NCBI GenBank assembly: GCA_963744145.1
Contig: CAVUSO010000001.1
Location: 2,062,831 to 2,126,830, forward strand
Direction of reading: 5' to 3'
DNA: 64,000 nucleotides
Source: an uncultured cyanobacterium
Lineage (GTDB): Bacteria; Cyanobacteriota; Cyanobacteriia; Cyanobacteriales; CAWUOF01
Position numbers and translations under genes: made by a program. The notes under the pieces are model-generated. The model was not told the DNA's origin and did not search any database. It was given only the letters and a program-made list of their open reading frames with translations. Numbering within the stretch: position 1 is the first letter of the stretch; every line of letters begins with the position of its first letter. This document shows positions 1 through 28,762 of this stretch, in pieces.

Positions 1-567
1 TCCTCTAATGCGATCGTGGTCTTGGAAGTTTTTGTTGGTTGGTTATTACAAGCAATTATTACTGGTTTAGCTTTTGCCAGATTCTCTCGTCCTCAAGCTC
101 AAGTTTTATTCAGCAACATTGCCGTCATTACTAATTATAATGGTATCCCAAGTCTAATGTTTCGTGTCGCTAATCAGCGGCATAATCAAATTTTACAAGC
201 CGAAATATCAGTAAGTTTATTTTGCTATGAAATTACCTTGGAAAATGAATCTATACCTCAATTTTATCAGCTAAATTTGGTTCGTAATAAATCGCCAATT
301 TTTGATTTAACCTGGAGAGTGATCCACCAGATCGATGCTAATAGTCCCCTGTATGGAATTACTCCTGAAGAACTTGTCCAAAAACAGATGGAAATTATCG
401 TCACCTTCACTGGACTAGATGAGACAGTTTCGCAAACAATTTATGCTCGTCATTCCTTTACAGCATCAGAAATCCAGTTGAATCGGCGATTTGTTGATAT
501 CATATCGGGTACTAACGGACGTCGTCAAATTGATTATGTGCGTTTTCACGAAACTATTCCAGGGTAG
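1..567 (+). CDS. Inward-rectifier (KirBac-type) potassium channel, 5'-truncated by the window edge (C-terminal cytoplasmic domain)
   Basis: Frame 1 is open from nt 1. The translation (…AFARFSRPQAQVLFSNIAVITNYNG…LVRNKSPIFDLTWRVIHQIDANSPLYGITPEEL…RHSFTASEIQLNRRFVDIISGTNGRRQIDYVRFHETIPG) is collinear with my recollection of the KirBac1.1 cytoplasmic Ig-like domain, including its xARFSRPxA…HxIDxxSPL…IDYxRF landmarks. Confidence 0.8.
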   Translation, partial: SSNAIVVLEVFVGWLLQAIITGLAFARFSRPQAQVLFSNIAVITNYNGIPSLMFRVANQRHNQILQAEISVSLFCYEITLENESIPQFYQLNLVRNKSPIFDLTWRVIHQIDANSPLYGITPEELVQKQMEIIVTFTGLDETVSQTIYARHSFTASEIQLNRRFVDIISGTNGRRQIDYVRFHETIPG

Positions 568-730: not shown

Positions 731-949
731 TTAAGCAATTTGTAGCCGACTAGGTTCAGGGATAGATTTACCTTCTGCTTGCCAACTTTCTAAATATATT
801 TCAATGACTTCTTCAGCATTATGAATTGCTTCTTCACGAGTTTTACCATGAGTGCAAGGCATAAAGACCCGCTCATCAAACTCTGGAATTGTCACTAAAA
901 AAAGCTGATCTTCATCAGACCATTGAATGAGCATACTATATTGACTCAT
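731..949 (-). CDS. hicB: HicB-family antitoxin (UPF0150)
   Basis: 72 aa. YSMLIQWSDEDQLFLVTIPEFDE…THGKTREEAIHNAEEVIEIYLESWQAEGKSIPEP fits the HicB N-domain consensus. It is translationally coupled to hicA. Confidence 0.7.
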   Translation of the reverse strand: MSQYSMLIQWSDEDQLFLVTIPEFDERVFMPCTHGKTREEAIHNAEEVIEIYLESWQAEGKSIPEPSRLQIA

Positions 950-1166
950 TATTATCCTCCCTTAATTCTTCTAATATAATAAGTAACTTCGCTAGTTGTT
1001 TTTCTAAGTATAATGGTACATCATCTCCATCTTGACCTGAAATAGTCAAGGTTTTTCCCAATAAAGGATGTCGCCAAAGTTCGTGACTTCCTTTACCACG
1101 TTTGGGTAGATAAACAAATCCTGCACGGGCAATCTGAATTTTTAACTCTCGAATTTTCCTAGGCAT
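936..1166 (-). CDS. hicA: HicA-family toxin (YcfA-like mRNA interferase)
   Basis: 76 aa. Motif KIRELKIQIARAGFVYLPKRGKGSHELWRHP matches the HicA consensus (KxxELIKxLxxxGW/F…KGSH). It overlaps the downstream hicB by 14 nt, the typical operon order. Confidence 0.7.
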   Translation of the reverse strand: MPRKIRELKIQIARAGFVYLPKRGKGSHELWRHPLLGKTLTISGQDGDDVPLYLEKQLAKLLIILEELREDNNESI

Positions 1167-1256
1167 GAATGTTGTTTGCCGATCGCAACTACACCAATAT
1201 TAGACTAAAATTGATTCAAACTCCGATCGCTCTTTTCTGGCGATCGCCCCATATAT

Positions 1257-4200
1257 ATGAAACGACAAGCGTTAGTTATTGGGATCAACCGCTATCCATT
1301 TTTAAAGCAGCATCTCGACGGACCCGATCGAGATGCTAATGATATTGCCAACTTGCTGGATCGTCCCCAGGAACATCCCGATGATTTTACTTGGTGTGTG
1401 GAACGCTTGCTTTCTGCCAAAATAGAAACAGAAGATAGCACAGTTAAAACAGAAGAACTGCGCGAAGCTATCCAGAATTTATTTTTACCAACTACCAAAA
1501 CGCCCCCAGAAGTAGTGTTGTTGTTTTTTGCTGGTCACGGACTGCGGAATAAAGCAGGAGAAGTTTACCTAGCTGCTAGTGATGTCTGTCCCACCAGAAA
1601 AGATAAATGGGGTTTTCCGATTGAGGAATTGCGGGAATTAATGCAAAAAAGTAAAATTCCCCAGCAGATAGTATTTCTCGATTGCTGTCATAGCGGTGAC
1701 TTAGTGAATGGGTTGACAAATTTAACAGAGCCAGAACTGCAACAATGGAACATCGGTGGGAGTCGATTAATTGTCACTGCTTGTAGAGACGATCGCACGG
1801 CTAAAGGTATTGGTAAACGCGGTGTACTTACTGAGGCACTTTTACAAGGACTCGACCCCCAAAACCGAGAAACTGGCTACTGGGTCAGCACTTACTTCCT
1901 CTACGAATTTTTAATGCGGCACATCAATTATAATCCCCTGCTCAAGGAGCAAATTCCACTATGCTATCGGTATGGAGAACCGATTAATTTTTGGATGGGG
2001 AAAGGAGAAAGCGATCGCCTCCCGACTTCAACAATAGGATGGTGGAAATCTATTTGTGAGCAACGCTTAGAACAGCAGCACGCGATCAGCAGCAAATTTT
2101 TAACAGGAATTGCCCCCAAAATTGAAGATGTTTATGTACCGCTTGGTTTGGTGGAACGCCAACAGAAAAGTCGCCAAAAAGACGGCGGTGAAATAGATGC
2201 AACGCGGGGTTCTGCTTTGTATGAAGAAACCGAAATTACCCGCCGATTCCAGCACCATGAATTTTTAGAAAATGTATTGCGACGCGGTGATAGTCCGAAA
2301 AGTAAAGGCAAACGATTAGTTATATTAGGAGAACCAGGAGCCGGAAAAACTACCTTACTTCAACAAGCATCTCGCTGGGTAGCAGCAGAAATTGAGGATG
2401 CAATTGTTTTGTGGGTTTCCCTAGCAGATTTGGGAGGAAGAAGTTTAGAGGATTATTTATTAGAAGTGTGGCTACTTGAAATAGTACGAATGGCTCTGGA
2501 AGTTAGCGTTTCTGAAACTGATAAAAAGGATTTTATTGTGCAGGTTGATCAGGGACGAGTGTGGCTGTTCCTTGACGGTGCAGATGAAATGGCAGCTAGC
2601 AAACCATTATTAAAAATTGATAAACAAATTCGCAATCCAGGTTGGTTAAATAAAGCACGAATTTTACTCACCTGTCGGCTCAATTTGTGGGATAGTGGCA
2701 GTAACCCTCTCGCTGAATTTGATGTTTACCGGACATTAGAGTTTGACTATCCGGTACAGGTAGAGCAGTTTATTAATAGTTGGTTTACTGATTTGGGTAA
2801 AACGGATGAGAAAGCAATTGCTAGAGGGCAGCAACTCTGTACTGCATTAAAAGAATCAGGAAAAGAGCGAATTCAAGATTTAGTTAAAAATCCTTTGCGG
2901 TTGACACTTTTATGCTTTACTTGGCATAAGTGGCAAGGTAAATTACCGGATACAAAAGCCGGACTTTATGAAAATTTTATCGAGCGATTTTATGAATGGA
3001 TAGAAAATAAGTTTCCGGTAACTGTTGAGAAGCAAGAACAGTTAAATAAGGCGCTGGGTGAGTTGGCGCGGGAGGCAATTGATAAAGAATTAACTCGGTT
3101 TCGCTTGCGGCGCAAGTTTGTTAGCAAGTTTTTGGGAAGTCCAAAGGATAAGAAGTCCCTCTTTTATCTGGCGTTACAGGTGGGTTGGTTGAATCAGGTA
3201 GGAGTAGATGCAGATAACCCAGATGAGCCAGTTTATGCGTTTTATCATGCCTCATTTCAGGAGTATTTTGCAGCATTAGCAGTTGAAGATTGGCAGTATT
3301 TTTTACATCACATACCGCAAAATCCGCAGTTAGGAACCTATCGAATTTTTGAGAAGCAGTGGAAACAGGTAATTTTGCTGTGGCTGGGACGTGAAAATAT
3401 ACCAAAAGACCAAAAAGAAGAGTTTATTAATGGGTTGGTAGAGTTTCATGATGGATGCAGAGGTTTTTATAAGTATCAAGCCTATTTTCTAGCGGCTGCG
3501 GGAATTGCTGAGTTCAAAACTTGTAACCGATCGCAGGAGATAGTAGCAGAGATTGTTAAGTGGGGTTTTGGTTATTTCGATAATGAAAAACAGTCATGGA
3601 TGACTTTTTATGAACCTATACCGGAAACCGCTAGGAAAGCATTAAAAGAAACCGATTCTCAAAAGGCGATCATTCTTATAACGCAGCTAATTAATACGGA
3701 TTGTTCTGAAAGTATCCGCTGGCAAGCGGCAGAAAGTTTAGGGGAAATCGACCCAGGGAATCCCCAGGCGATCGCGGTTTTCATCGACTTAATCGCTCAC
3801 TCCCATGATGAATTTACCCGTTGGAAAGCAGCAGAAGAGTTAGGGAAAATTGACCCAGGGAATCCTCAGGCGATCGCGGTTTTCATCGACTCAATCGCTC
3901 ACTCCCGTGTATATCCCCCCAGCGCAGCGGCAAAAAGGTTAGGGAAAATTGACCCAGGGAATCCCCAGGCAATCGCGGCTTTAATCGACTTAATCGCTCA
4001 CTCCCACTCCCATGATGAATATACCCGCACATCCGCAGCAAATAGTTTAGGGTACATTGCCCCAGGGAATCCCCAGGCGATCGCGGCTTTAATCGACTTA
4101 ATCACTCACTCCCATGATGAATATACCCGCAGATCCGCAGCAGATAGTTTAGGGAAAATTGACCCAGGGAATCCCCAGGCAATCACGGCTTTAATTGACT

Positions 4201-5267
4201 TAATCACTCACTCCCAAGATGAATCTATCCGCATAGAAGCAGCAGATAGTTTAGGGAAAATTGACCCAGGGAATCCCCAGACGATCGCGGCTTTAATTGA
4301 CTTAATCACTCACTCCCATGATGAAGATACCCGCAATCAAGCGGCATATAATTTAGGGAAAATTTGGTACATTGCCCCAGGGCATTCCCAGGCGATCGCG
4401 GCTTTAATCGACTTAATCGCTCACTCCCATGATGAAGATATCAGCAGGCAAGCGGCAGAAAGTTTAGGGTACATTGACCCAGGGAATCCCCAGGCGATCA
4501 CGACTTTGACTGACTTAATCGCTCGCTCCCAAGATGAATCTATCCGCATAGAAGCAGCAGATAGTTTAGGGTACATTGACCCATGGAATCCCCAGGTGAT
4601 CGCGGCTTTAATCGACTTAATCACTCACTCTCAGGATGAAAATATCCGCAGGCGAGCGGCATATAATTTAGGGAAAATAGGAAAAATTGCCCCAGGGCAT
4701 TCCCAGACGATCGCTATTTTAATTGACTTAATCGCTTACTCCCAGCATCACCACACCCGCTATCGAGCGGCAGAAAGTTTAGAGAAAATCCTGCTAGACG
4801 ATTTTATATCAGAAGGTGTTACTCTTTTGGGAGTAAGGCAAAATCAAGAAGGCTTCAAAGTTCTATGGCAATGTGCCCAAAAGATGTCCTATCCAGCTTT
4901 CTATGAAGCTTATACAGTTTCCACTCTTGAGTATTGTCAGAAGTGGCTGGAGATTAAACGAACCATCGGTGATAAGCGAGGTGAGGCAGATTATCTGATC
5001 GCAATAGGTACTTTATATCAACAAAGTCGGAAATTTCGGGAAGGACAGGCATTTCTTCAACAAGCTATATATATTTTACAGGAAATTAATGCACCTATTG
5101 ATGCTTATCCCTTTGCCCAGTGGTTAAAATCAATTATTAAATTTGCTAATGGGGGCAAGTTGCAGTTAGCTCTATGCTTTATTGCTGGTTTAATAGCATT
5201 TCCGATAGCATTTCCTTTGGCTTTGATGTGGTTTTTAGCAGTGTGGTTGTGGCGTAAATGGCATTAG
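1257..5267 (+). CDS. STAND (signalling NTPase) protein: N-terminal caspase-like peptidase C14 domain - NACHT NTPase - about 9 PBS-lyase-type HEAT repeats - C-terminal hydrophobic segment
   Basis: A caspase-type His/Cys dyad is present (FFAGHGL … FLDCCHSGD). Walker A is VILGEPGAGKTTLLQ, Walker B is WLFLDGADEM, and LLTCR matches the NACHT sensor motif. Ten copies of a ~40-aa unit (…IRxxAAxSLGKIDPGNPQAIAALIDLIxHSxDE…) are encoded by ~120-nt nucleotide repeats at 3700-4790. The final 50 aa are hydrophobic. Confidence 0.8.
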   Translation: MKRQALVIGINRYPFLKQHLDGPDRDANDIANLLDRPQEHPDDFTWCVERLLSAKIETEDSTVKTEELREAIQNLFLPTTKTPPEVVLLFFAGHGLRNKAGEVYLAASDVCPTRKDKWGFPIEELRELMQKSKIPQQIVFLDCCHSGDLVNGLTNLTEPELQQWNIGGSRLIVTACRDDRTAKGIGKRGVLTEALLQGLDPQNRETGYWVSTYFLYEFLMRHINYNPLLKEQIPLCYRYGEPINFWMGKGESDRLPTSTIGWWKSICEQRLEQQHAISSKFLTGIAPKIEDVYVPLGLVERQQKSRQKDGGEIDATRGSALYEETEITRRFQHHEFLENVLRRGDSPKSKGKRLVILGEPGAGKTTLLQQASRWVAAEIEDAIVLWVSLADLGGRSLEDYLLEVWLLEIVRMALEVSVSETDKKDFIVQVDQGRVWLFLDGADEMAASKPLLKIDKQIRNPGWLNKARILLTCRLNLWDSGSNPLAEFDVYRTLEFDYPVQVEQFINSWFTDLGKTDEKAIARGQQLCTALKESGKERIQDLVKNPLRLTLLCFTWHKWQGKLPDTKAGLYENFIERFYEWIENKFPVTVEKQEQLNKALGELAREAIDKELTRFRLRRKFVSKFLGSPKDKKSLFYLALQVGWLNQVGVDADNPDEPVYAFYHASFQEYFAALAVEDWQYFLHHIPQNPQLGTYRIFEKQWKQVILLWLGRENIPKDQKEEFINGLVEFHDGCRGFYKYQAYFLAAAGIAEFKTCNRSQEIVAEIVKWGFGYFDNEKQSWMTFYEPIPETARKALKETDSQKAIILITQLINTDCSESIRWQAAESLGEIDPGNPQAIAVFIDLIAHSHDEFTRWKAAEELGKIDPGNPQAIAVFIDSIAHSRVYPPSAAAKRLGKIDPGNPQAIAALIDLIAHSHSHDEYTRTSAANSLGYIAPGNPQAIAALIDLITHSHDEYTRRSAADSLGKIDPGNPQAITALIDLITHSQDESIRIEAADSLGKIDPGNPQTIAALIDLITHSHDEDTRNQAAYNLGKIWYIAPGHSQAIAALIDLIAHSHDEDISRQAAESLGYIDPGNPQAITTLTDLIARSQDESIRIEAADSLGYIDPWNPQVIAALIDLITHSQDENIRRRAAYNLGKIGKIAPGHSQTIAILIDLIAYSQHHHTRYRAAESLEKILLDDFISEGVTLLGVRQNQEGFKVLWQCAQKMSYPAFYEAYTVSTLEYCQKWLEIKRTIGDKRGEADYLIAIGTLYQQSRKFREGQAFLQQAIYILQEINAPIDAYPFAQWLKSIIKFANGGKLQLALCFIAGLIAFPIAFPLALMWFLAVWLWRKWH

Positions 5268-5412: not shown

Positions 5413-5697
5413 ATGTCACCAAATACTCTCTTACTACCCCAATTCCAAAACCTACTCAATACGCTACCCATCGAAGGAGCAGTCCGCATCGAACTTGCCG
5501 AAGGAGTCCCGATTTTTCGAGCTTCTAGTGCTGTCCAAACTCGCATTAAGGAACTGCTCGAAAAACAAAGCTCTTTTCCCTTAACGATAGAAGAAGAACG
5601 AGAACTTGACCTTTATGAAGAAATCGACGATTACCTGAGTTTTGTTAATCGGACAATTCGCAATCTTTTTTTAGCTCAAACTCAGCTTAGTTTATAA
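5413..5697 (+). CDS. Hypothetical small protein (94 aa) flanked by two direct copies of a hairpin repeat
   Basis: Clean ORF with no recognisable motif. It sits between repeat copies at 5283-5400 and 5771-5900. Confidence 0.35.
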   Translation: MSPNTLLLPQFQNLLNTLPIEGAVRIELAEGVPIFRASSAVQTRIKELLEKQSSFPLTIEEERELDLYEEIDDYLSFVNRTIRNLFLAQTQLSL

Positions 5698-6083: not shown

Positions 6084-6329
6084 ATGAGTATTGTGATCTC
6101 CGATGAAATTTTAACTATAACTCGCATGACTGAACCGGAAATGAGACAAGAAATTGCTGTTCTGCTCTTTCAGAGGGAAAAGTTGACACTTGCTCAAGCG
6201 AGTCGATTTGCTGCTATGAACCGGATTGCTTTTCAACACCTCCTCGCAAGTCGTCAAATCCCAGTACATTACGGTGTAGAAGATTTTGAACAAGACATTA
6301 AGAACTTACGGGAGATGGGTAGACTGTGA
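6084..6329 (+). CDS. UPF0175-family antitoxin-like protein
   Basis: 81 aa. EMRQEIAVLLFQREKLTLAQASRFAAMNRIAFQHLLASRQIPVHY…EDFEQDIKNL matches the UPF0175 pattern (…LSLGKAAELAGMSxxEFxxLLxxRGIPxxY…EDLExDL). Confidence 0.65.
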   Translation: MSIVISDEILTITRMTEPEMRQEIAVLLFQREKLTLAQASRFAAMNRIAFQHLLASRQIPVHYGVEDFEQDIKNLREMGRL

Positions 6330-6617: not shown

Positions 6618-6827
6618 ATGGCTGAAATTACCCTAGACGAAACCAAAATCAAGGAACTGTTCAAAGCCGCAATTGTTGAGGTACTGCAAGAACAAAAAGA
6701 AGTGTTTTTTGACCTTTTAGCAGAAGCATTAGAAGATCTAGCCATAGAAAGTGCTATCAAAGAAGGTGAGAATACTGAAACAGTCAGCCGCGAGGAGATT
6801 TTCAAACTCCTGAAGAGATTACCATGA
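6618..6827 (+). CDS. Hypothetical small acidic protein (69 aa)
   Basis: An ORF with a plausible RBS context (aaggaaaagctATG). No recognisable motif. Confidence 0.35.
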   Translation: MAEITLDETKIKELFKAAIVEVLQEQKEVFFDLLAEALEDLAIESAIKEGENTETVSREEIFKLLKRLP

Positions 6828-7958: not shown

Positions 7959-7988
7959 GAGGAGGTTTTCGATACCTCCTCTTTTTTT
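7959..7988. terminator. Bidirectional rho-independent terminator between convergent genes
   Basis: gaggaggttttcgatacctcctc hairpin (8-bp GC-rich stem) followed by TTTTTTT on the + strand and preceded by an A-run. It serves the 136-aa gene (+) and rtcB (-). Confidence 0.75.
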
Positions 7989-9849
7989 AGCCTTTTACAC
8001 AAACAACCTGCTTTAAAGTTGCTTCTATTTGCACTAAATCTGATTGCTGTTTCATCACTTCATCAATTGGCTTATAAGCCCCAGGTATTTCATCCAGAAC
8101 TCCCTGATCTTTACGACATTCTACACCCTTAGTTTGCTGAATCAAATCATCTAAAGTATAAAGATTTTTAGCCTTATTACGAGATAACAAACGCCCAGCA
8201 CCGTGGGAACAAGAGCAATAACTTTCAGCATTACCCTTACCTTTCACAATAAAAGACTTAGCTCCCATTGAACCAGGAATAATTCCATAATCTTCTAATT
8301 TCGCTCGAACTGCACCTTTGCGAGTGACATAAACCTCTTCACCAAAATGCACCTCTTTTTCTGCATAATTGTGGTGACAATTAACCTCTAATAAAGGCTT
8401 AATAGACTTTCCTCCAGCAAGATGTTTCTCAATAATCCGACGAAAACGAGCCATCATCACATCGCGATTAAAACGAGCATAATCTTGTGCCCATTGTAAA
8501 TCCCGCCAATAGGCTGCAAATTCTGGAGTTCCAGCCACAAAATAAGCTAAATCTTTATCTGGTAAAGGATTTTCTGCCAGTTTTGCTAATTCCTTAGCAG
8601 TATCAATATGACACTGAGCTAACATATTCCCAATATGGCGAGAACCAGAGTGCAACATCAGCCAAACATAGTTTTCGGTATCGAGACAAACCTCAATAAA
8701 ATGATTACCACCACCAAGAGATCCTAATTGTTTGATCGCTTTACCTTCTAAACGTTGCACACCGGGATGTAATTCTTTAAAATCACTCCATTTCTGCCAA
8801 TTAGTTACGCTTTTTTCAACATCTTTGTTTTCATTAAATCCTACTGGAATAGATGTTTCAATATCTAAGCGAATTTGTTTGAGTTTTCCCTCTAAGCGAT
8901 CGCCTACAAATGGAGTTTTAACAGCCATCATCCCACAGTTATGAACAAATATACCAGCAGTAAGAGCAAAATTACCGTATTCTGGTACTGTCAAACAGTA
9001 AACATCTTCACTATTTGATAAAGGGATAACATCTAACACTTTGTGATTATAGCCATGTTGGGATTTTCTATGGTTATGATGCCAATGAGAATTTTTTTCT
9101 ATTAGTAATCGATGATCGGAGGAATGATTCTTATTGCCCATCAATTCTAAGTTTTCTGGTCTATGAGCAAAACCATTAAAATTCTTATGATGAATAACTG
9201 TTCTTTGATTTTCAAATGAAGGTACTTTCCCCAATAATTTTGATCGGGCAATAATCCAATGTGCTTTTTGATATTTACCTGAATAATTCTGCTGGATTAA
9301 AGTATAGCCATACTTATCTGTTTTAGAATAGAATGGCATTAAAGATACACCCGCTTTGAGCTGGTTAGCTTCTTGATATGTGCCATCTCGTAGCATAAAC
9401 TGATGATCCGTCGTACATTTGATCTCTTCCCCATTATCTAGAATTACCTTTAGTAATGAAGCGTTACGACGAGTTAAGTGTGCCCTCGCTTTTGCTGCTA
9501 CTACTCTTCCACTTGGGGTACAAGAATAAACAATAAATTCTTCAGAAAGTAAAGTTAGTTCTTTGATTGGGTAAGATTTTCCGTCTGCCAGAGGAATTAA
9601 GGTATCCCCAGTAAAACAACCAATGTCCACACCCACAGCGGCAGGAATAATTGCTTCTTTGGTCGCAATTACTGATCCGACTAAAGCACCTTTACCTAAA
9701 TGCACATCTGGCATTAAAGCAATATGCTTAAATACAAATGGTAATGATGCTACATTTCTGGCCATTTTCTGCTCTTCATGGCCCAGTAAATGTCCAGCCC
9801 ATGATAAAACTGGGCTAGGTGCGGATAATTGTAACTGTTCGTAGGGCAT
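7987..9849 (-). CDS. rtcB: RNA-splicing ligase RtcB interrupted by an in-frame intein (extein about 393 aa, intein 227 aa)
   Basis: RtcB landmarks are present: MPDVHLGKGALVGSV, then AVGVDIG|C…HN|CGMM, where the conserved GVDIGCGM is split. C-terminal motifs GGGNHF, HSGSRHIG and NCHHNY follow. Confidence 0.85.
   Translation of the reverse strand: MPYEQLQLSAPSPVLSWAGHLLGHEEQKMARNVASLPFVFKHIALMPDVHLGKGALVGSVIATKEAIIPAAVGVDIGCFTGDTLIPLADGKSYPIKELTLLSEEFIVYSCTPSGRVVAAKARAHLTRRNASLLKVILDNGEEIKCTTDHQFMLRDGTYQEANQLKAGVSLMPFYSKTDKYGYTLIQQNYSGKYQKAHWIIARSKLLGKVPSFENQRTVIHHKNFNGFAHRPENLELMGNKNHSSDHRLLIEKNSHWHHNHRKSQHGYNHKVLDVIPLSNSEDVYCLTVPEYGNFALTAGIFVHNCGMMAVKTPFVGDRLEGKLKQIRLDIETSIPVGFNENKDVEKSVTNWQKWSDFKELHPGVQRLEGKAIKQLGSLGGGNHFIEVCLDTENYVWLMLHSGSRHIGNMLAQCHIDTAKELAKLAENPLPDKDLAYFVAGTPEFAAYWRDLQWAQDYARFNRDVMMARFRRIIEKHLAGGKSIKPLLEVNCHHNYAEKEVHFGEEVYVTRKGAVRAKLEDYGIIPGSMGAKSFIVKGKGNAESYCSCSHGAGRLLSRNKAKNLYTLDDLIQQTKGVECRKDQGVLDEIPGAYKPIDEVMKQQSDLVQIEATLKQVVCVKG
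8938..9618 (-). mobile_element. Intein (227 aa) with an HNH homing-endonuclease-like insert, inside rtcB
   Basis: Starts with C FTGDTLI (block A) and has CTTDHQFML (block B). It ends IFVHN followed by the extein +1 Cys (block G). Internally, HHKNFNGFAHRPENLELMGNKNH…HWHHNH fits an HNH nuclease motif. Coordinates derive from residues 78-304 of the 620-aa ORF. Confidence 0.75.
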
Positions 9850-17574: not shown

Positions 17575-18189
17575 ATGGTTAAATCCTTATCAAAACCAAA
17601 AACTTTCGCTGAATTTATCCAGTGGAAACCGGAAAATAAACACTATGAACTGCATGATGGAGCAATTATTGAAATGCCCCAACCAACAGGTGAACATGAA
17701 GATATTGTGGGATTTTTAGCGGAAAAACTGACTTTAGAATATGTTCGTCTCAACCTTCCCTATTCTATTCCAAAAACGGCGCTGGTTAAATCAGCATCAA
17801 GTGAATCAGCTTATTCACCAGATCTATTGTTAATCAACCGTTCTAATTTGATCAACGAACCTTTTTGGAAAAAAGAATCTACCGTAACTATGGGTGCATC
17901 TATTCCTTTAGTTATTGAAGTGGTTAGCACTAATTGGCGAGATGATTACTACAAAAAATATGGGGAGTATGAAGGTATAGGAATTTCCGAGTATTGGATT
18001 GTAGATTATCTGGCTCTAGGTGCTGGTAAATTTGTTGGTAATCCTAAACAACCGACTGTTTCTATTTACTTTTTAGTAGAGGGAGAATACCAAGTTAGTC
18101 AATTTAGAGGAAATGACAACATTCAATCATTAATTTTCCCAGAGTTAAGTTTAACTGCCCAACAAATATTTCGATCGGTAAGTGAATAA
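17575..18189 (+). CDS. Uma2-family (DUF820) PD-(D/E)xK endonuclease-like protein
   Basis: FAEFIQWKPENKHYELHDGAIIEMPQPTGEHEDIVGFL… matches the Uma2 N-terminal consensus. It is one of five paralogues in the window. Confidence 0.7.
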   Translation: MVKSLSKPKTFAEFIQWKPENKHYELHDGAIIEMPQPTGEHEDIVGFLAEKLTLEYVRLNLPYSIPKTALVKSASSESAYSPDLLLINRSNLINEPFWKKESTVTMGASIPLVIEVVSTNWRDDYYKKYGEYEGIGISEYWIVDYLALGAGKFVGNPKQPTVSIYFLVEGEYQVSQFRGNDNIQSLIFPELSLTAQQIFRSVSE

Positions 18190-19053: not shown

Positions 19054-19245
19054 TTGATTCAGGAACTAGAACAAGCTCCTGATGACCTAGTACAAACAGT
19101 GCTAGATTTTTTCTATCGGGTTAAGGCAATACGCCAAAAAAATTCCCTTGCCAAATTTGCCGGAATTTTAAGTGACTCTGAAGCGGAGGAACTACAACGA
19201 GCAATTACCACCGAGTGCCGCCAGGTAGATTTTAATGAGTGGTGA
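19054..19245 (+). CDS. vapB: VapB-like antitoxin
   Basis: 63-aa acidic protein whose stop overlaps the start of the PIN gene by 11 nt. Confidence 0.55.
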   Translation: MIQELEQAPDDLVQTVLDFFYRVKAIRQKNSLAKFAGILSDSEAEELQRAITTECRQVDFNEW

Positions 19246-19627
19246 GATTGCATTAGATACCTCTGTTGCGATTCGTTTCTTGAATGGAGACGCAGCTATT
19301 ACGGAAAGAGTGTTGGCATTACCAGAAATAGTTTTGCCAATAGTTGTTGTGGGAGAGTTAATTTTTGGTGCAGAAAACTCTACCCGTCAGTTACAAAATT
19401 TGCCTCGTTATCTTGAGTTTATATCGGCTTGTGTTGTTGTACAATTAGGACAAGAAACCGCAGAAACTTATGCTAGAACTCGGTTATTGTTGAAACGCAA
19501 AGGGCGACCAATCCCCATGAATGATGTATGGATCGCTGCTCAATGCTTAGAACAGGGTTGGGTATTGGTGACAGATGATACGGATTTTAATTATGTAGAT
19601 GGATTGATATTGGAACACTGGCGTTGA
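19235..19627 (+). CDS. vapC: VapC PIN-domain toxin
   Basis: IALDTSVAIRFL (N-terminal acidic D), VVGELIFGAE and LVTDDTDF match the conserved PIN acidic residues. Length 130 aa. Confidence 0.75.
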   Translation: MSGEIALDTSVAIRFLNGDAAITERVLALPEIVLPIVVVGELIFGAENSTRQLQNLPRYLEFISACVVVQLGQETAETYARTRLLLKRKGRPIPMNDVWIAAQCLEQGWVLVTDDTDFNYVDGLILEHWR

Positions 19628-19932
19628 GAAAATTATATTCATTGCTTACTACGAACCAGACCATCAAGTTATTTATTTTTCATTCCTTATCAAAACTCAA
19701 CCTCCTGCTCACCTACCCCAGAAGCGATCGACTTTTGCCACCAACTCACTGATACTAAGCGCGATCGCATGGCTAACCAATGAACCCCTAGAAGCACCGT
19801 TAAAAGGTTTTCCACCTCATCAACCCAATCTGTTATCTGCGATTCAAACCTGGTTAGAAGAGACTTGAACAAGTGGATTTTTGCTCCAAATTGAGCTAAA
19901 ATCTCGGTAGACCATAATTCTTAATCCTCAAA

Positions 19933-20583: not shown

Positions 20584-21516
20584 ATGAGTATCATTGTCTT
20601 TGGTAGTATTAACCTCGACCTAATTACTACAACTCCTCGCTTCCCTCATCCTGGCGAAACTATCCAGGGCTATAATTTTTATACAGCAGGTGGTGGTAAA
20701 GGTGCAAATCAAGCTGTAGCAGCTTCCCGTCTGGGAGTCACAACCCATCTGATTGGGCGCGTTGGTGCTGATAATTTTGGCCAAGAATTATTGAGAAGTT
20801 TAGAGTCTTATGGATTAAATATTGATAATATTTTGATTGACAAAACTACTCATTCAGGTATTGCAATTATCACTGTAGAGGATGGTGGTCAAAATAATAT
20901 TATCGTTATTCCTGGAGCAAATAACTGTGTTAATGATCTAGATGTAGAGCGTTTAAAAGAAATATTACCAACAGCTACAACTTTGTTATTACAGTTAGAA
21001 ATACCTCTAGCAATTGTGCAACAATCGGCGATCGCTGCATGGGAAGCGAAGGTAAAAGTTATTCTAGATCCCGCACCTGTTCGCTCAGATATTCCCAGGG
21101 AATTATATCCATTAATTGATATTATTACTCCCAATGAAATCGAAGCTAGTCAATTGGTAGGTTTTATGGTGAATAGTCGGGAGAGTGCGATTGATGCTGC
21201 TGTTCAATTGCGTGATTGGGGTGTTAATACTGCTATTGTTAAATTGGGCGATCGAGGTGTTGTTTGTGCAACGGCTGATGAGACCTTTTTTCTTCCAGCT
21301 TTTCCAGTAGTTGCTGTTGATACAGTAGCTGCTGGTGATGCTTTTAATGGGGGACTTGTAGCAGCTTTAGATAGTGGTTTAGCTTTGCGAGATGCGGTAG
21401 TTTGGGGGACAGCAGCAGGTGCTTTATGTGTGATGAAACCTGGTGCTCAACCTGCTATGTGCGATCGCGGAACTTTTGATGCTTTTTTGGCAACTGTTCA
21501 CGGACCCAAGCTCTAA
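20584..21516 (+). CDS. rbsK: Ribokinase (PfkB carbohydrate kinase family)
   Basis: MSIIVFGSINLDL…AGGGKGANQAVAASRLG is the ribokinase N-terminal GG motif. The C-terminal DTVAAGDAFNGGL is the PfkB signature 2. Start taken at the ATG at 20584, after the repeat cluster. Confidence 0.8.
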   Translation: MSIIVFGSINLDLITTTPRFPHPGETIQGYNFYTAGGGKGANQAVAASRLGVTTHLIGRVGADNFGQELLRSLESYGLNIDNILIDKTTHSGIAIITVEDGGQNNIIVIPGANNCVNDLDVERLKEILPTATTLLLQLEIPLAIVQQSAIAAWEAKVKVILDPAPVRSDIPRELYPLIDIITPNEIEASQLVGFMVNSRESAIDAAVQLRDWGVNTAIVKLGDRGVVCATADETFFLPAFPVVAVDTVAAGDAFNGGLVAALDSGLALRDAVVWGTAAGALCVMKPGAQPAMCDRGTFDAFLATVHGPKL

Positions 21517-22126
21517 AAGCTCTCATTGTCTTATTTCTACCATCCGTATTGATTCTACTTAAATATTCGGGGATTACCTCAATGAGGGGTAAATTAGGAA
21601 AAATAGAACTAAATTTTGACTCCCTATACTTTCCATCTTCTAGCACATTAATTTGTAACTTACCTTTTTCAAATCGCCAAAGTTCAGGCACTTTTAAAGC
21701 TGCATAAATATCTGGATGAGTGCGAGAAGTTATATCTATCTCCAAGACTAAATCTGGAGGGGGATCATGGCTTAAGTCTAATTTAGATTTTCCTCTGACT
21801 AATGCTTCATTTTGGATATAGAAACAGTTATCTGGTTCTATTCCTTTCCAAGTTTCTGGGTTGGTAAAGGTAGTAGATCCCAGAGGATAAAAATCAATAT
21901 TTAGTTCTTCTAAAATAATTTCTACAAAGTTACCGATGAAGATTTTGCTAAATTCATGCTCTGGTAATGGTGTCATAATTTCTAATCTGCCGTGATCATA
22001 AGCTATTCTGGAGGTACGATGTTCTCCTAATTCATCTAAAATAGATTCAAATTCTTGCCAGGTGATCCCATCTAAAAATATTTTATGACCGGGTGGTATG
22101 TTAAATCGCTTTAATTCTAAGAGCAT
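21455..22126 (-). CDS. Uma2-family (DUF820) endonuclease-like protein
   Basis: FLDGITWQEFESILDELGEHRTSRIAYDHGRLEIMTPLPEHE… aligns with the other Uma2 paralogues at 17575, 25287 and 55950. Confidence 0.7.
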   Translation of the reverse strand: MLLELKRFNIPPGHKIFLDGITWQEFESILDELGEHRTSRIAYDHGRLEIMTPLPEHEFSKIFIGNFVEIILEELNIDFYPLGSTTFTNPETWKGIEPDNCFYIQNEALVRGKSKLDLSHDPPPDLVLEIDITSRTHPDIYAALKVPELWRFEKGKLQINVLEDGKYRESKFSSIFPNLPLIEVIPEYLSRINTDGRNKTMRAFRAWVREQLPKKHQKFRDRT

Positions 22127-25286: not shown

Positions 25287-26051
25287 TCAATCAATTTCAT
25301 CTGGGTTTAGTCCTAGCGATCGCAAGCGTTCTGCTAATCTTTCGGCTCGTTGACGCTCTTGTTCAGCTCGTTGACGCTCTTGTTCGGCTCGTTGCTGCTC
25401 TTGTTCGACTTGTTGTTGAGCTAATACAGCACGTTGTTTAACTTCTTCAGCTTCTTGTAAGGCTGATTCTAACTTTTGATTAGTTTCACTAGGATCGTAA
25501 AATAGATTACCATTAGGATGATAAAGCTGTAATTCTTCACTTGATAAATCAAACCGAATACCTAGTCTTGGGCTTACCCAATTATTCATTTCTTCAATGA
25601 CGCATAAATTATCTTCTGCTCTTAACCAACCAGTCAAATCATTGTTTTCTGGGTCATAAAGATAGTATTCTTCGACTCCATAAATACGATAAAATTCCTG
25701 TTTTTTACTCATTGCTGATAATCTATTCCCAGGTGAAAGAATCTCAAATACTACTTGTGGGGCAATGTTTCCTTCTTCCCATTGTCGATAGGAACCTCGA
25801 TGTTTTTTTTCAGCTCCAAATACCACCATTACATCAGGAGCTTGACGAATTTTATTATTTCCTTCGACTGGATACCATAATAAATCCCCAGCAATAAATA
25901 CATTAGGTACATCTGCAAATAAGCTGACCAAATTGCAATAGATGATCGTAATCCAATAAAATTGCTTGGTATTCTCTGACATCGGGTTACCGTCGTCCTC
26001 TGGGTAAATTACTGTGGGTTTAGCGGGCGATTCTAGTTTCATCATAACCAA
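25287..26051 (-). CDS. Uma2-family (DUF820) endonuclease-like protein with C-terminal coiled-coil QRAEQER repeat tail
   Basis: The Uma2 core (FYWITIIYCNL…VVFEILSPGN) is followed by QQQVEQEQQRAEQERQRAEQERQRAERLAERL. The nucleotide sequence 25340-25440 is a 30-nt tandem repeat. Confidence 0.65.
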   Translation of the reverse strand: MVMMKLESPAKPTVIYPEDDGNPMSENTKQFYWITIIYCNLVSLFADVPNVFIAGDLLWYPVEGNNKIRQAPDVMVVFGAEKKHRGSYRQWEEGNIAPQVVFEILSPGNRLSAMSKKQEFYRIYGVEEYYLYDPENNDLTGWLRAEDNLCVIEEMNNWVSPRLGIRFDLSSEELQLYHPNGNLFYDPSETNQKLESALQEAEEVKQRAVLAQQQVEQEQQRAEQERQRAEQERQRAERLAERLRSLGLNPDEID

Positions 26052-26101: not shown

Positions 26102-27349
26102 TTAATGTTCAGAATCTACCCAAACAGTTTGACCACTTGTATTGATATATCTCCACTGTTGATCTACTTTCACGTAAGCTAGATCACCCTGAACAAAAGG
26201 AAAAATATCGACTTCATCAAATTCTGGTGCGATCGCGATTTGCCCAGTTTCATCCATAAATCCCCACTTTCCCTTGAGCATGATTGCTTTTAATCCATGA
26301 TAAAAACAGTAGGAATTATCAATTTTATCAAACTGTGGCTGGACAATTATTTGCCCAGCTTGATTAATAAATCCCCACTTGTTATTAATTTCTACTGCGG
26401 TGAGATATTGAGGAAAACATTTATACGATATTCTCTCAAACTGTGGTGAAATGAGAAATTCTCCCTGGTGATTAATTAGTCCATATTTGCCATTTTTGGC
26501 GGCGATCGCTAATCCTTTTGCCGAAAATATTGATAGGGCGTAAAATTGTGGTTTCGGTTCTTCTGTAAATTTTCCATCCCGATCTATATAACCCCTTTTT
26601 GTATTATAAACTACCCAAGCTTTGCCATGATAAAAATTTTCAGCCCACTCAAATTGGGGTGGAATAACAACTTGTCCATTGTGATTAATAAAACCGATAT
26701 TATTCCCAATTCTTACTTGTGCTAATCCCTCAGAAAAAAATCCCGGAGCATCAAATTGGAGTGGAATGACAATGGTGCCATGTTGATTAATATAACCCCA
26801 TTTATCGTTAATTGCCACTGCTGCTAAGTCTTCGGAAAATCCCTGGATAAAATCAAATTGAGGTGAGGTGACTATCTGTCCTTTTTCGTTAATTAATCCA
26901 ATTTTACCGTTAATTCTTACTTGGGCTAAACCATGTTTAAATTCTTCTTCACCCTGAAATTGTGGGGGAATGATTATTTTACCAGTCTGATTAATATAAC
27001 CCCATTTCCCATTCATACTTACTGGAGTTAGTGCTTCATTTCCACAGTTTAAAACTCGCTCAAATTGGGGTGCGATCACAATTTTTCCATTTTCATCGAT
27101 ACAGCCCCATTTCTGGTTAATTTTTACTAATGCTCTGTGATTAAAGAAATCTGATACTTGTTCAAATTGAGGAGCAATTACTATTTTTCCAGTTTCATCT
27201 ATATAGCCAAACTTTTGGTTTTGACGAATGATAAACCTTTGGATCATATTTTGCGACTCTCGTGATCTTGCTTGAACTCGGGCTGAATCTGCTAAAATGA
27301 TTAATGTGAGCGTGACTAAACCTAACATCCCAAATCTACCTGGTTTCAT
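26102..27349 (-). CDS. Secreted KWG (WG-containing) repeat protein, paralogue 3 of 3
   Basis: Signal peptide, then about 12 repeats of …KWGYIDxxGKIVIxPQFDxx…F.EGLA…. Confidence 0.7.
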   Translation of the reverse strand: MKPGRFGMLGLVTLTLIILADSARVQARSRESQNMIQRFIIRQNQKFGYIDETGKIVIAPQFEQVSDFFNHRALVKINQKWGCIDENGKIVIAPQFERVLNCGNEALTPVSMNGKWGYINQTGKIIIPPQFQGEEEFKHGLAQVRINGKIGLINEKGQIVTSPQFDFIQGFSEDLAAVAINDKWGYINQHGTIVIPLQFDAPGFFSEGLAQVRIGNNIGFINHNGQVVIPPQFEWAENFYHGKAWVVYNTKRGYIDRDGKFTEEPKPQFYALSIFSAKGLAIAAKNGKYGLINHQGEFLISPQFERISYKCFPQYLTAVEINNKWGFINQAGQIIVQPQFDKIDNSYCFYHGLKAIMLKGKWGFMDETGQIAIAPEFDEVDIFPFVQGDLAYVKVDQQWRYINTSGQTVWVDSEH

Positions 27350-27364
27350 TTTTATTTTCCTTGA

Positions 27365-28699: not shown

Positions 28700-28762
28700 A
28701 TTCCACCAGTAGAGTGATTTTTTCTAACTTAGCTCAAAAAATAGAAACTGCCAATATGTTCA

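What the first reader, a model, noticed from the sequence alone, without database searches (positions are those of the whole stretch)
731..5267. Caspase-like (C14) – NACHT – HEAT-repeat giant STAND protein next to a HicAB module
A single 1336-aa ORF combines an orthocaspase-type His/Cys dyad (FFAGHG / DCCHSGD), a NACHT NTPase (GEPGAGKTTLLQ, LFLDGADE, LLTCR) and about 9 PBS-lyase HEAT repeats, and ends in a hydrophobic segment. The architecture looks like an NLR-like sensor fused to a protease effector, reminiscent of bacterial NACHT defence proteins and of caspase-linked programmed cell death. The adjacent hicAB addiction module and the upstream ion-channel gene place it in an accessory or defence context. 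Peptidase-NACHT fusions with this repeat type are essentially uncharacterised.
Basis: partly seen in the sequence, partly recalled or inferred. Interest (0 to 1): 0.7.

Follow-up and report, generated by a model that had tools for sequence, protein, structure and literature searches.

The report
Mosaic caspase–NACHT–HEAT immune-type sensor
This is an intact cyanobacterial gene for an NLR-like "sensor plus executioner" protein (caspase-type protease, NACHT switch, variable HEAT-repeat binding surface). It belongs to an already described class but is assembled from three different protein lineages, including a borrowed tail that is probably a membrane anchor.

Summary
One 1336-aa ORF (1257..5267, +) encodes a Peptidase_C14 domain with its His94/Cys144 dyad, an intact NACHT NTPase, 11 HEAT units, an NCC-H domain and a hydrophobic C-terminus. 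A HicA/HicB pair lies divergently upstream.

It is a member of the bacterial NACHT (NLR-like) proteins described computationally by Aravind and co-workers and Kibby et al. Caspase effectors, HEAT sensors and NCC-H are all listed there, so the kind is known.

New details:
- The protein is a three-way mosaic. The caspase clade normally sits on nSTAND1–WD40 proteins. The NACHT–HEAT–NCC-H chassis normally carries EAD10 or no effector. The last ~115 aa come from NB-ARC–TPR proteins.
- That tail ends in a conserved module with no Pfam model (55 carriers, nearly all C-terminal), predicted as an amphipathic helix plus a hydrophobic helical hairpin.
- The HEAT units are αRep-type. Their four most variable positions are αRep binding positions.
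- The closest orthologues sit in caspase-rich conflict islands with a conserved divergent ~160-aa partner. That partner is absent here.
- HicAB adjacency is not conserved and is probably coincidental.

The function (ligand-triggered oligomerisation, protease activation, cell death or abortive infection) is inferred by analogy only.

The parts
1257..5267 (+). Whole gene: 1336-aa caspase-NACHT-HEAT-NCC-H-TPR/anchor protein
   Evidence: Intact ORF. The identical protein P0001 lies on a 7.63-Mb NCBI/ENA contig and is a singleton 90% cluster. The N-terminus MKRQALVIGINRY matches the start of all relatives.
1257..2006 (+). Caspase-like (Peptidase_C14, orthocaspase/metacaspase-type) domain, aa 1-250. 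Catalytic His94 at nt 1536-1538 and Cys144 at nt 1686-1688. Metacaspase-like TACRDDRTAKG at aa 174-184.
   Evidence: Pfam 69.7 bits. PADLOC 'caspase' 3e-18. AlphaFold model with pLDDT >90 over most of aa 1-250. Foldseek probability 1.0 to MALT1, GSU0716, Yca1, AtMC9 and AtMC4. Dyad conserved.
2007..2291 (+). Linker, aa 251-345: helix 260-282, a low-confidence stretch, then the conserved pre-NACHT segment (DVYVPLGLVER...)
   Evidence: pLDDT <50 for aa 281-307. The DVYVPLGLVE motif is invariant in relatives and also opens the effector-less paralogues.
2292..2936 (+). NACHT NTPase core, aa 346-560: Walker A 2328-2351, Walker B 2565-2588, LLTCR 2664-2678
   Evidence: Pfam NACHT above cut-off. Walker A present in 119/120 and Walker B in 118/119 family members. 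80-86% identity to P0002, P0004 and P0121.
2937..3656 (+). NACHT-associated helical / winged-helix region, aa 561-800, with FYHASFQEYFAA (nt 3240-3275)
   Evidence: About 58-62% identical across the whole family. Motif located. Reading it as the NLR winged-helix His motif is my own knowledge.
3657..4799 (+). Array of 11 HEAT (alphaRep / PBS-lyase type) units, aa 801-1181; predicted ligand-binding solenoid
   Evidence: HEAT_2 at 7e-59. TRF period 102. PDB alphaRep hits down to 2e-20. The four most variable unit positions are alphaRep positions 19, 22, 23 and 26 (P about 5e-4). dN/dS is 1.95 at alphaRep positions against 0.68 at scaffold positions.
4851..4913 (+). NCC-H domain (NACHT C-terminal Cys/His-containing), aa 1199-1219, ...WQCAQKMSYPAFYEAY
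   Evidence: Pfam PF22730, 36.4 bits against a cut-off of 27. The same motif sits near the C-terminus of most family members.
4923..5087 (+). About 1.5 TPR_12-type repeats, aa 1223-1277, derived from the NB-ARC-TPR lineage
   Evidence: Homology to TPR repeats of NB-ARC-TPR proteins starts at aa ~1223. PADLOC TPR hit; Pfam TPR_12 below cut-off. AlphaFold TPR hairpin with pLDDT >90.
5088..5264 (+). Conserved C-terminal anchor module, aa 1278-1336: amphipathic helix (1288-1298) plus hydrophobic helix-turn-helix (1301-1314 / 1318-1335)
   Evidence: 55 HMMER hits, nearly all at the extreme C-terminus, with a conserved alignment. The nine long carriers scanned are NB-ARC and/or TPR_12 proteins. No Pfam model. 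AlphaFold hairpin. K/R on both flanks and no acidic residues.
936..1166 (-). HicA toxin gene (76 aa), divergent from the large gene; a neighbour, probably not a functional part
   Evidence: Pfam HicA_toxin 33.2 bits. Not adjacent to any orthologue. Homology breakpoint at the ATG.
731..949 (-). HicB antitoxin gene (72 aa), overlapping hicA by 14 nt
   Evidence: Pfam HicB_lk_antitox 32.2 bits.

Best explanation
The gene encodes a single-polypeptide NLR-like conflict (immune or regulated-cell-death) sensor of a filamentous cyanobacterium. It belongs to the bacterial NACHT family.

Proposed mechanism:
1. The alphaRep-type HEAT solenoid uses its variable helix-B surface to bind a trigger, most likely a phage protein or a phage-induced change in a host protein.
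2. Binding releases the NACHT NTPase switch, and the protein oligomerises.
3. The N-terminal caspase-like domains are brought together and activated, as caspase-9 is on the apoptosome.
4. The protease, probably Arg/Lys-specific like other orthocaspases and metacaspases, cuts cellular proteins. This stops growth or kills the infected cell, protecting the rest of the filament.
5. A C-terminal module acquired from NB-ARC-TPR proteins probably tethers the protein to a membrane through a re-entrant hydrophobic hairpin.

Shown here by computation: the domain composition, the intact catalytic and NTPase motifs, the caspase fold, the position of the repeat variability, the mosaic origin, and the island context of the orthologues.

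Inferred by analogy only: the trigger, the oligomerisation, the proximity activation, the substrate specificity, the cell-death outcome and the membrane location.
For: - Domains pass curated cut-offs.
- His94/Cys144, Walker A/B and LLTCR are intact and conserved.
- The caspase fold is confident and matches paracaspase and metacaspase structures.
- The chassis belongs to a family of at least 871 cyanobacterial NACHT-HEAT-NCC-H proteins whose N-terminus varies: EAD10, caspase or nothing. The slot after NCC-H also varies: nothing, NCAB1, Fer2, or here TPR plus anchor. This is the effector/sensor shuffling described for bacterial NACHT proteins, several of which protect E. coli against phage.
- The four most variable HEAT positions are the alphaRep binder positions, with dN/dS 1.95 against 0.68.
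- The repeats are homogenised within the protein and diverged from those of the orthologues, as in rapidly evolving NLR sensors.
- The closest orthologues (L004, L078) lie beside caspase-iSTAND + AAA + vWA systems; L078 also holds further caspase genes and an integrase. These match the conflict systems of multicellular bacteria in Kaur et al. 2020.
- Relatives occur on plasmids (L049; P0060).
Against: - No experiment exists for this protein or for any caspase-NACHT-HEAT protein.
- PADLOC and NCBIfam give no hit above cut-off to any validated defence system.
- No known defence system is adjacent in the window.
- The conserved divergent ~160-aa partner of this caspase clade, present in 40 of 78 loci including the closest orthologues, is absent from the entire 64-kb window. 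The protein may therefore lack a needed component.
- The gene has recombination junctions at both ends, and one repeat unit looks scarred. Decay cannot be excluded.
- The dN/dS test rests on six codons in non-independent paralogous units.
- The trigger could be abiotic or endogenous rather than a phage.
Confidence: 0.55

Rival explanations
1. A decaying or orphaned mosaic. The gene was moved without its usual partner genes, fused by accident to the 3' end of an NB-ARC-TPR gene, and is no longer functional, or only constitutively inert.
For: - Homology to the orthologues starts exactly at the ATG and ends just after NCC-H.
- The conserved divergent ~160-aa partner and the downstream iSTAND/AAA/vWA genes of L004 and L078 are absent from the window.
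- HEAT unit 2 (aa 869-901) looks like a local frameshift scar.
- The neighbourhood is rich in orphan antitoxin-like genes.
- A truncated 169-aa caspase paralogue exists on the same contig.
- The protein is a singleton cluster.
Against: - A 4-kb ORF with no stop or frameshift.
- Every catalytic and NTPase motif is intact.
- The borrowed tail keeps the consensus residues of its family.
- Many family members are solitary genes, and bacterial NACHT proteins work as single genes in E. coli.
Confidence: 0.15
2. A regulated-cell-death or stress orthocaspase that is not directed at phages. The HEAT array monitors an endogenous state, for example phycobilisome or photosynthetic-apparatus proteins at the thylakoid membrane, and triggers proteolysis under nutrient, light or oxidative stress.
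For: - The HEAT units are of the PBS-lyase type, with weak similarity to CpcE and NblB.
- The tail suggests membrane proximity.
- Cyanobacterial orthocaspase expression and activity have been linked to stress-induced cell death in Trichodesmium and Microcystis.
- Kibby et al. note cyanobacterial NACHT sensors, such as GUN4, that may monitor photosynthesis.
Against: - CpcE and NblB scores are far below cut-off: 70.9 against 330, and 39.5 against 300.
- The gene is rare, non-syntenic and mosaic, which is unlike a core stress pathway.
- The hypervariable binding positions fit a changing target better than a conserved host protein.
Confidence: 0.15
3. An allorecognition or kin-discrimination NLR, comparable to fungal HET-E/NWD proteins. 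The variable repeats would recognise polymorphic proteins of other strains, and death would follow contact or fusion between incompatible filaments.
For: Highly similar, internally homogenised repeats with variation focused at binding positions are the hallmark of fungal incompatibility NLRs (papers listed). The parallel is drawn by Kaur et al. 2020.
Against: Cytoplasmic exchange between unrelated cyanobacterial filaments is not an established process (my own knowledge). No polymorphic partner locus was identified. There are no allelic data.
Confidence: 0.07
4. A functional unit with the adjacent HicAB module, or a housekeeping HetF-like developmental protease.
For: Only the physical adjacency: 90 bp between the divergent start codons.
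Against: - HicAB is absent next to every orthologue.
- The 5' flank is unrelated to that of the orthologues.
- Distribution is patchy: only 1 of 74 reference-genome loci with this caspase clade has the same chassis.
- No NCBIfam developmental-protease model matched.
Confidence: 0.03

Closest known systems
Bacterial NACHT (bNACHT) NLR-related proteins (Kibby et al., bioRxiv 10.1101/2022.07.19.500537); the cyanobacterial NACHT-HEAT-NCC-H subgroup
   Same: Tripartite effector-NACHT-sensor layout with an intact NACHT module, a HEAT-repeat 'antigen-receptor type' sensor and an NCC-H domain. The caspase is a listed effector class. Many paralogues with swapped effectors occur in multicellular cyanobacteria.
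   Different: The bNACHT proteins tested against phage in that study were assayed in E. coli, and the study names no caspase-bearing member among them. This protein adds a TPR plus hydrophobic-hairpin tail taken from the NB-ARC-TPR lineage. That tail was seen in none of the other 119 listed family members.
[quoted passage not shown]
   Same: A STAND NTPase plus a repeat sensor controlling a caspase-fold protease. Here the protease is fused directly, as noted for cyanobacterial Apaf-1 homologues.
   Different: NACHT rather than AP-ATPase/NB-ARC, and HEAT rather than WD40. The protease is of the metacaspase/orthocaspase type, for which basic P1 specificity is expected, and not an Asp-specific caspase. 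Oligomerisation is not demonstrated.
EACC1-caspase two-gene systems and MoxR-vWA-iSTAND ternary systems (Kaur et al. 2020, PMC7159879)
   Same: The caspase domain is closest to NCBIfam 'caspase, EACC1-associated type'. That system has a caspase N-terminus with interchangeable C-terminal STAND/repeat modules, often with TM helices. The orthologues L004 and L078 sit beside caspase-iSTAND + AAA + vWA genes.
   Different: The score is below the family cut-off (85.2 against 140). No EACC1-like 5' gene was seen here or in the relatives. No MoxR/vWA genes were found in the window ORFs scanned.
Cyanobacterial orthocaspases (e.g. MaOC1 of Microcystis) and multi-domain metacaspases catalogued by Asplund-Samuelsson et al. 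2012 and Jiang et al. 2010
   Same: A p20-type domain with the His-Cys dyad at the N-terminus of a multi-domain protein. Metacaspase-NACHT fusions and a NACHT-HEAT_PBS x9-metacaspase (Tery_1841) are on record, and a C-terminal TM helix is the commonest cyanobacteria-specific add-on.
   Different: The domain order is the reverse of Tery_1841. This specific protein has no biochemical data.
alphaRep artificial binders and their natural HEAT-like repeat family (Guellouz et al. 2013, PMC3754942)
   Same: The same 31-34-aa unit: PDB alphaRep hits down to 2e-20. The natural variability falls at the library's randomised positions.
   Different: A natural array with 34-37-aa spacing, embedded in a STAND protein. 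The ligand is unknown.

Membership tests
NACHT-clade STAND NTPase (bacterial NLR-related) | NACHT profile match above the curated threshold | tested here: met
   PF05729, 33.0 bits against 26.7, aa 354-510.
NACHT-clade STAND NTPase (bacterial NLR-related) | Intact Walker A (GxxGxGKT/S), Walker B (hhhhDGxDE) and the downstream hhhT[CS]R motif | tested here: met
   GEPGAGKT at aa 358, LFLDGADE at aa 437, LLTCR at aa 470. Conserved in 119/120, 118/119 and 79/119 family members respectively.
NACHT-clade STAND NTPase (bacterial NLR-related) | Tripartite architecture: N-terminal effector, central NTPase, C-terminal repeat sensor; NCC-H accessory domain in this subgroup | tested here: met
   Caspase / NACHT / HEAT x11 / NCC-H at 36.4 bits against 27. 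Definitions.
NACHT-clade STAND NTPase (bacterial NLR-related) | NTP-dependent oligomerisation and anti-phage (or cell-death) activity | not testable with these tools
   Needs biochemistry and infection assays.
Peptidase C14 (orthocaspase / metacaspase-like) | Caspase-hemoglobinase fold | tested here: met
   PF00656, 69.7 bits against 21.4. AlphaFold pLDDT >90 over most of aa 1-250. Foldseek probability 1.0 to MALT1, GSU0716, Yca1, AtMC9 and AtMC4.
Peptidase C14 (orthocaspase / metacaspase-like) | Catalytic His-Cys dyad in the (F/Y)xGHG and DxCHSG motifs | tested here: met
   H94 and C144 are present. They are invariant in 6 close relatives and at least 90% conserved in 40 and in 53 wider relatives.
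Peptidase C14 (orthocaspase / metacaspase-like) | Cleavage after Arg/Lys; autoprocessing | not testable with these tools
   D142 and the ACRDD motif are conserved, consistent with an acidic S1 pocket. That reading is my own knowledge. Specificity for MaOC1 is reported.
EACC1-caspase two-gene conflict system (Kaur et al. 2020) | Caspase of the EACC1-associated type, at the NCBIfam NF047832 cut-off | tested here: not met
   85.2 bits against a cut-off of 140.
EACC1-caspase two-gene conflict system (Kaur et al. 2020) | 5' gene encoding EACC1, a small single-TM protein | tested here: not met
   No same-strand small TM ORF upstream in the window or in 78 related loci. The upstream genes here are HicA and HicB.
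Avs / AVAST and other PADLOC-listed defence systems | Profile match to a validated defence-system protein | tested here: not met
   PADLOC gives only generic domain hits (caspase, HEAT, TPR, mad8 at 8e-4). NCBIfam antiphage EruA scores 39 against 1000, and HyoA 24 against 1200.
Bacterial gasdermin-protease systems | Adjacent gasdermin gene | tested here: not met
   No gasdermin among the ORFs within about 7 kb scanned with Pfam.
CpcE/CpcF/NblB phycobiliprotein lyase-type HEAT proteins | NCBIfam equivalog score | tested here: not met
   CpcE 70.9 against 330; NblB 39.5 against 300; CpcF 16.1 against 220. This is repeat-level similarity only.
HetF-like housekeeping or developmental CHF protease | Conserved orthology and synteny across heterocyst-forming cyanobacteria | tested here: not met
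   Singleton cluster. No close orthologue in the reference genomes. The context differs in every related locus. No direct sequence comparison with HetF was made.
HicAB type II toxin-antitoxin (neighbour) | HicA and HicB profiles above cut-off, in overlapping genes | tested here: met
   33.2 and 32.2 bits against 27, with a 14-nt overlap.

The most novel reading that the evidence does not exclude
The last ~60-70 aa form an undescribed, portable membrane-anchoring cap of cyanobacterial STAND/TPR proteins. It consists of an amphipathic helix and a Pro-kinked hydrophobic helical hairpin, flanked by basic residues on both sides. Here it has been transplanted from the NB-ARC-TPR lineage onto a NACHT-HEAT-caspase protein. 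The result would be a membrane-tethered 'mini-inflammasome' whose protease acts at the thylakoid or plasma membrane. A related point: this caspase clade normally works with a conserved divergent ~160-aa partner that has no Pfam or NCBIfam match (sometimes fused to a CHAT protease), and this protein has been uncoupled from it.
Probability: 0.3. Interest if true: 0.55.

Novelty: new member of a known kind. Interest (0 to 1): 0.38.

Why it matters
Bacterial NLR-like proteins are now viewed as relatives or forerunners of animal, plant and fungal innate-immune receptors. The tested examples come mostly from enterobacteria and carry nuclease or TIR-type effectors. A single polypeptide that joins a caspase-fold protease to a NACHT switch and a binder-type HEAT surface is a compact model for asking whether proximity-induced caspase activation, the logic of the apoptosome and inflammasome, already operates in multicellular bacteria.

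This copy also shows how such receptors are built, by recombining modules across STAND families (nSTAND1-WD40, NACHT-HEAT, NB-ARC-TPR). It points to two conserved modules with no Pfam model that could be studied: a C-terminal hydrophobic hairpin cap, and a ~160-aa divergent partner of the caspase clade. The kind itself is not new, so its value is as a well-dissected example and not as a discovery.

Tried and rejected
- Word-indexed search with the tail found nothing. The exhaustive HMMER search later found 55 relatives, so the 'orphan tail' idea was dropped.
- A direct scan of the reference genomes with aa 1-345 found no close orthologue. The source genome could not be named: P0001 carries no name or accession, and its gene is not in the contig index.
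- My first estimate of the chimeric junction, aa ~1237 from BLAST, was corrected to aa ~1223 by HMMER alignment to TPR proteins.
- EACC1 partner hypothesis: no such 5' gene.
- Idea that the caspase-NACHT-HEAT segment replaced the 5' part of a resident NB-ARC-TPR gene: the three tail-carrier loci examined (L079-L081) share no synteny or flanking DNA with the window. Neither supported nor refuted.
- orf94 (5413..5697) as a conserved partner: it has 70-73% identical copies in L013 and L016, but about 4.5 kb from caspase genes of different architecture, and in L013 it is followed by an HNH gene. I treated it as an unrelated small-gene cassette.
- Promoter and terminator scans were uninformative, with fewer promoter-like sites than in shuffles. 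There is no tRNA in the window.
- Reading the protein as a phycobilisome lyase was rejected on NCBIfam scores.


Full report
**1. The observation**

The window holds an intact 1336-aa ORF at 1257..5267 on the + strand. A HicA (936..1166) / HicB (731..949) pair lies on the - strand just upstream, and the 3' part of a Kir-type channel gene lies at 16..567.

Pfam places Peptidase_C14 at aa 3-203 (69.7 bits), NACHT at aa 354-510 (33.0 bits, above its cut-off), strong HEAT_2/HEAT_PBS matches, and NCC-H (PF22730) at aa 1199-1218.

The repeat region is a real DNA-level tandem array: 3716..4789, period 102, about 9-10 copies. At the protein level it is 10 clear units plus a cap-like first unit, aa 801-1181. 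The only hydrophobic segment is at the extreme C-terminus.

**2. The protease and the switch look active**

His94 and Cys144 (the Cys before His in DCCHSG) are invariant in the caspase-NACHT relatives down to about 25% identity. They are at least 90% conserved in 40 and in 53 wider relatives.

An AlphaFold model of aa 1-345 is confident over the caspase domain: pLDDT above 90 for most of aa 1-250, pTM 0.77. Its best PDB matches are MALT1 paracaspase, the bacterial GSU0716 protein, yeast Yca1 and Arabidopsis metacaspases 9 and 4.

Walker A, Walker B and the LLTCR motif are intact, and Walker A and B are near-universal in the family. The NLR-type winged-helix motif FYHASFQEYFAA is present at aa 662-673; reading it as that motif is my own knowledge.

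**3. The family**

The NACHT-HEAT-NCC-H chassis belongs to a very large cyanobacterial family. There were 871 hits at E <= 1e-5 among the candidates scored, typically 53-57% identical over the NTPase module.

- In most members the N-terminus is either an EAD10 adaptor domain (PF19954) or nothing at all, with Walker A at aa ~78-90. Only a handful carry a caspase: P0002, P0003/P0121, P0006, P0068, P0095.
- The slot after NCC-H is also variable. Most members end 8-34 aa after the YPxFYxAW motif. Some have a fused NCAB1 (P0111) or Fer2 (P0005), and some have NCAB1 as a separate downstream gene (L078, L001).

This matches the description of bacterial NACHT proteins by Kibby et al. They defined NCC-H and NCAB, listed HEAT repeats among 'antigen-receptor-type' sensors and caspases among effectors, reported up to 23 paralogues per cyanobacterial genome, and noted that effectors swap between close relatives. 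Earlier surveys had already listed metacaspase-NACHT fusions and a Trichodesmium NACHT-HEAT_PBS x9-metacaspase. The kind is therefore known, although no caspase-NACHT-HEAT protein has been tested.

**4. A three-way mosaic**

*(a) The caspase module.* Its clade (M-x-R-x-A-L-V-V-G-I-N-x-Y...) is widespread: 340 stretches in reference genomes, 74 loci fetched. Its usual partner is nSTAND1 plus WD40, in 21 and 19 of 40 proteins scanned. Only one of the 74 loci, L004 (Oscillatoriales cyanobacterium USR001), has the NACHT-HEAT-NCC-H chassis.

*(b) The chassis.* The NACHT core is 80-86% identical to P0002, P0004 and P0121. The HEAT array is only about 39-45% identical to anything. Its unit consensus is NPQAIAALIDLITHSHDE.TR..AA.SLGKI, whereas the closest orthologues have NEGAIARLIQLLDQTSDENTR..VA.ILGNI. 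Identity between units is higher within a protein than between the window and the others: 0.56 against 0.31-0.37. This indicates independent homogenisation or expansion of the sensor, and TRF also finds a 315-bp, three-unit period.

*(c) The tail.* Directly after the NCC-H motif (...YPAFYEAY, aa 1219), from about aa 1223, the sequence switches to TPR_12-type repeats and a hydrophobic end. These align with the last 110 aa of an NB-ARC-TPR protein, P0203, at E = 3.5e-36.
- An exhaustive HMMER search with aa 1262-1336 found 55 proteins. The match is at the extreme C-terminus in nearly all of them, with a well-conserved alignment.
- The nine long carriers scanned are NB-ARC and/or TPR_12 proteins. 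None of the 54 other carriers has caspase, NACHT or HEAT similarity.
- Named carriers are Coleofasciculus, Argonema, Ancylothrix and Kamptonema.
- No Pfam model covers the anchor part.
- AlphaFold predicts a TPR hairpin (aa 1240-1276, pLDDT above 90), an amphipathic helix (1288-1298) and a hydrophobic helix-turn-helix (1301-1314 / 1318-1335).
- Both flanks are basic and there are no acidic residues. I read this as a re-entrant, cytoplasm-facing membrane hairpin. That is an inference.

**5. The sensor surface**

By sequence the HEAT units are the natural counterpart of the engineered alphaRep scaffold, with PDB hits down to 2e-20. alphaRep libraries randomise positions 18, 19, 22, 23, 26 and 30, because these vary in the natural family and form the binding surface.

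In the window's nine canonical units, the four highest-entropy positions are 19, 22, 23 and 26. The chance of that is about 5e-4. Nei-Gojobori estimates pooled over unit pairs give dN/dS of 1.95 at the a-priori alphaRep positions and 0.68 at scaffold positions. This is suggestive only: six codons, and non-independent paralogous units.

**6. Context**

The two closest full-length orthologues lie in syntenic islands. These are L004 (56% identity over the full length) and P0121 in L078 (55% over the full length, about 67% over aa 1-808).
- Both have a divergent ~160-aa gene and a ~526-aa coiled-coil gene upstream, and a caspase-iSTAND + AAA + vWA system downstream.
- L078 also has an NCAB1 gene directly downstream, further caspase genes and an integrase.
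- These correspond to the conflict systems of multicellular bacteria described by Kaur et al. 2020.

The divergent ~160-aa gene is conserved next to this caspase clade in 40 of 78 loci. In some it forms the N-terminus of proteins of ~713-781 aa; the two of these scanned with Pfam (L013, L020) carry a CHAT domain. It has no Pfam or NCBIfam match.

None of this is in the window. tblastn finds neither the 160-aa nor the 526-aa protein anywhere in the 64 kb. DNA homology to L004, L005 and L078 begins exactly at the ATG. HicAB is absent from all orthologous loci. I therefore treat the HicAB and Kir adjacency as coincidental, in a region that also holds orphan antitoxin-like genes: UPF0175, a RelB-like gene and orf94.

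**7. Mechanism**

By analogy with the apoptosome and inflammasome, and with the phage-defence bNACHT and Avs proteins, the best-supported model has five steps: the variable HEAT surface binds a trigger; the NACHT module drives NTP-dependent oligomerisation; the fused caspase-like domains are activated by proximity; the protease cleaves, probably after Arg/Lys; the cell stops growing or dies. The borrowed tail would place all of this at a membrane.

Everything beyond anatomy, conservation and context is inferred. The main rivals are a non-functional orphaned mosaic, a stress or regulated-cell-death protease that senses a host state, and allorecognition.

**8. Verdict**

This is a real, intact and unusually well-resolved example of a known kind: the bacterial NLR-like NACHT proteins with a caspase effector. 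It is not a new kind.

What is new is at the level of detail: the three-lineage mosaic, the C-terminal hairpin cap with no Pfam model that is shared with NB-ARC-TPR proteins, the alphaRep-type variable surface, and the loss of a conserved partner gene that has no Pfam or NCBIfam match. Interest is moderate.

Noticed in passing
L004:7456-7953 (-), L078:7471-7947 (-), L005:7471-7953 (-), and 37 further loci: A conserved ~155-165-aa gene is transcribed divergently, directly upstream of genes of this caspase clade, in 40 of 78 loci. In L013, L016, L017, L020 and L063 it forms the N-terminus of 713-781-aa proteins; the two of these scanned with Pfam (L013, L020) carry a CHAT domain. It has no Pfam or NCBIfam match and is absent from the window. 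It looks like an undescribed partner of these caspase-STAND proteins.
   Followed up: partly
window 7987..9849 (-): A 620-aa RtcB RNA ligase homologue appears to carry an inserted intein-like block, roughly aa 78-300, flanked by GCFTGDTLIPL... and ...VHNCGMM.
   Followed up: no
window 30409..32193 (-) and 34091..36721 (+): Two AAA_35 (PF14516) proteins. One has an unassigned ~257-aa N-terminus and the other is fused to WD40 repeats (876 aa). The second is another NTPase-plus-repeat protein, about 29 kb from the caspase-NACHT gene.
   Followed up: no
window 26102..29842 (-): Three tandem paralogous genes made of WG_beta_rep (PF14903) repeats: 415, 444 and 359 aa.
   Followed up: no
window 19054..19862 (+): A VapB-like small gene plus a VapC/PIN toxin (19235..19627), followed by a frame-disrupted NCAB1-like remnant at 19652-19862 (67% identity over 33 aa to the NCAB1 gene of L078). 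A PIN gene followed by an NCAB1 fragment is also seen in the Planktothrix locus L001.
   Followed up: partly
window 5413..5697 (+): A 94-aa ORF with no family match. It has 70-73% identical copies in L013 (3189-3461, followed by a 150-aa HNH endonuclease gene) and L016 (3384-3656), each about 4.5 kb from a caspase-clade gene. In the window no HNH partner follows it.
   Followed up: partly
window 6084..6329 (+) and 6618..6827 (+): UPF0175 and RelB-like antitoxin-type genes with no toxin partner of at least 50 aa beside them. These are orphan antitoxin genes downstream of the large gene.
   Followed up: no
window 3861..3959 (aa 869-901 of the large ORF): HEAT unit 2 reads HSRVYPPSAAAKRLGKI where the other units read HSHDEYTRRSAADSLGKI, and it is one residue short. 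It looks like a compensated local frameshift scar inside the array.
   Followed up: no
window 17575..18189 (+), 21455..22126 (-), 25287..26051 (-): Three Uma2-family (PF05685) putative restriction endonuclease genes are scattered through the window. Uma2 genes also recur near the STAND genes in L003, L079 and L080.
   Followed up: no
P0144 (same 7.63-Mb contig as the window protein; location unknown): A 169-aa truncated caspase-domain paralogue, 42% identical over 58% of the query, exists elsewhere in the source genome.
   Followed up: no
window 1167..1256: The 90-bp divergent intergenic region between hicA and the large gene contains one copy of the cyanobacterial HIP1 palindrome GCGATCGC and two one-mismatch CCGATCGC variants (seen in the alignment). 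It is unrelated to the conserved intergenic region of the orthologues.
   Followed up: no
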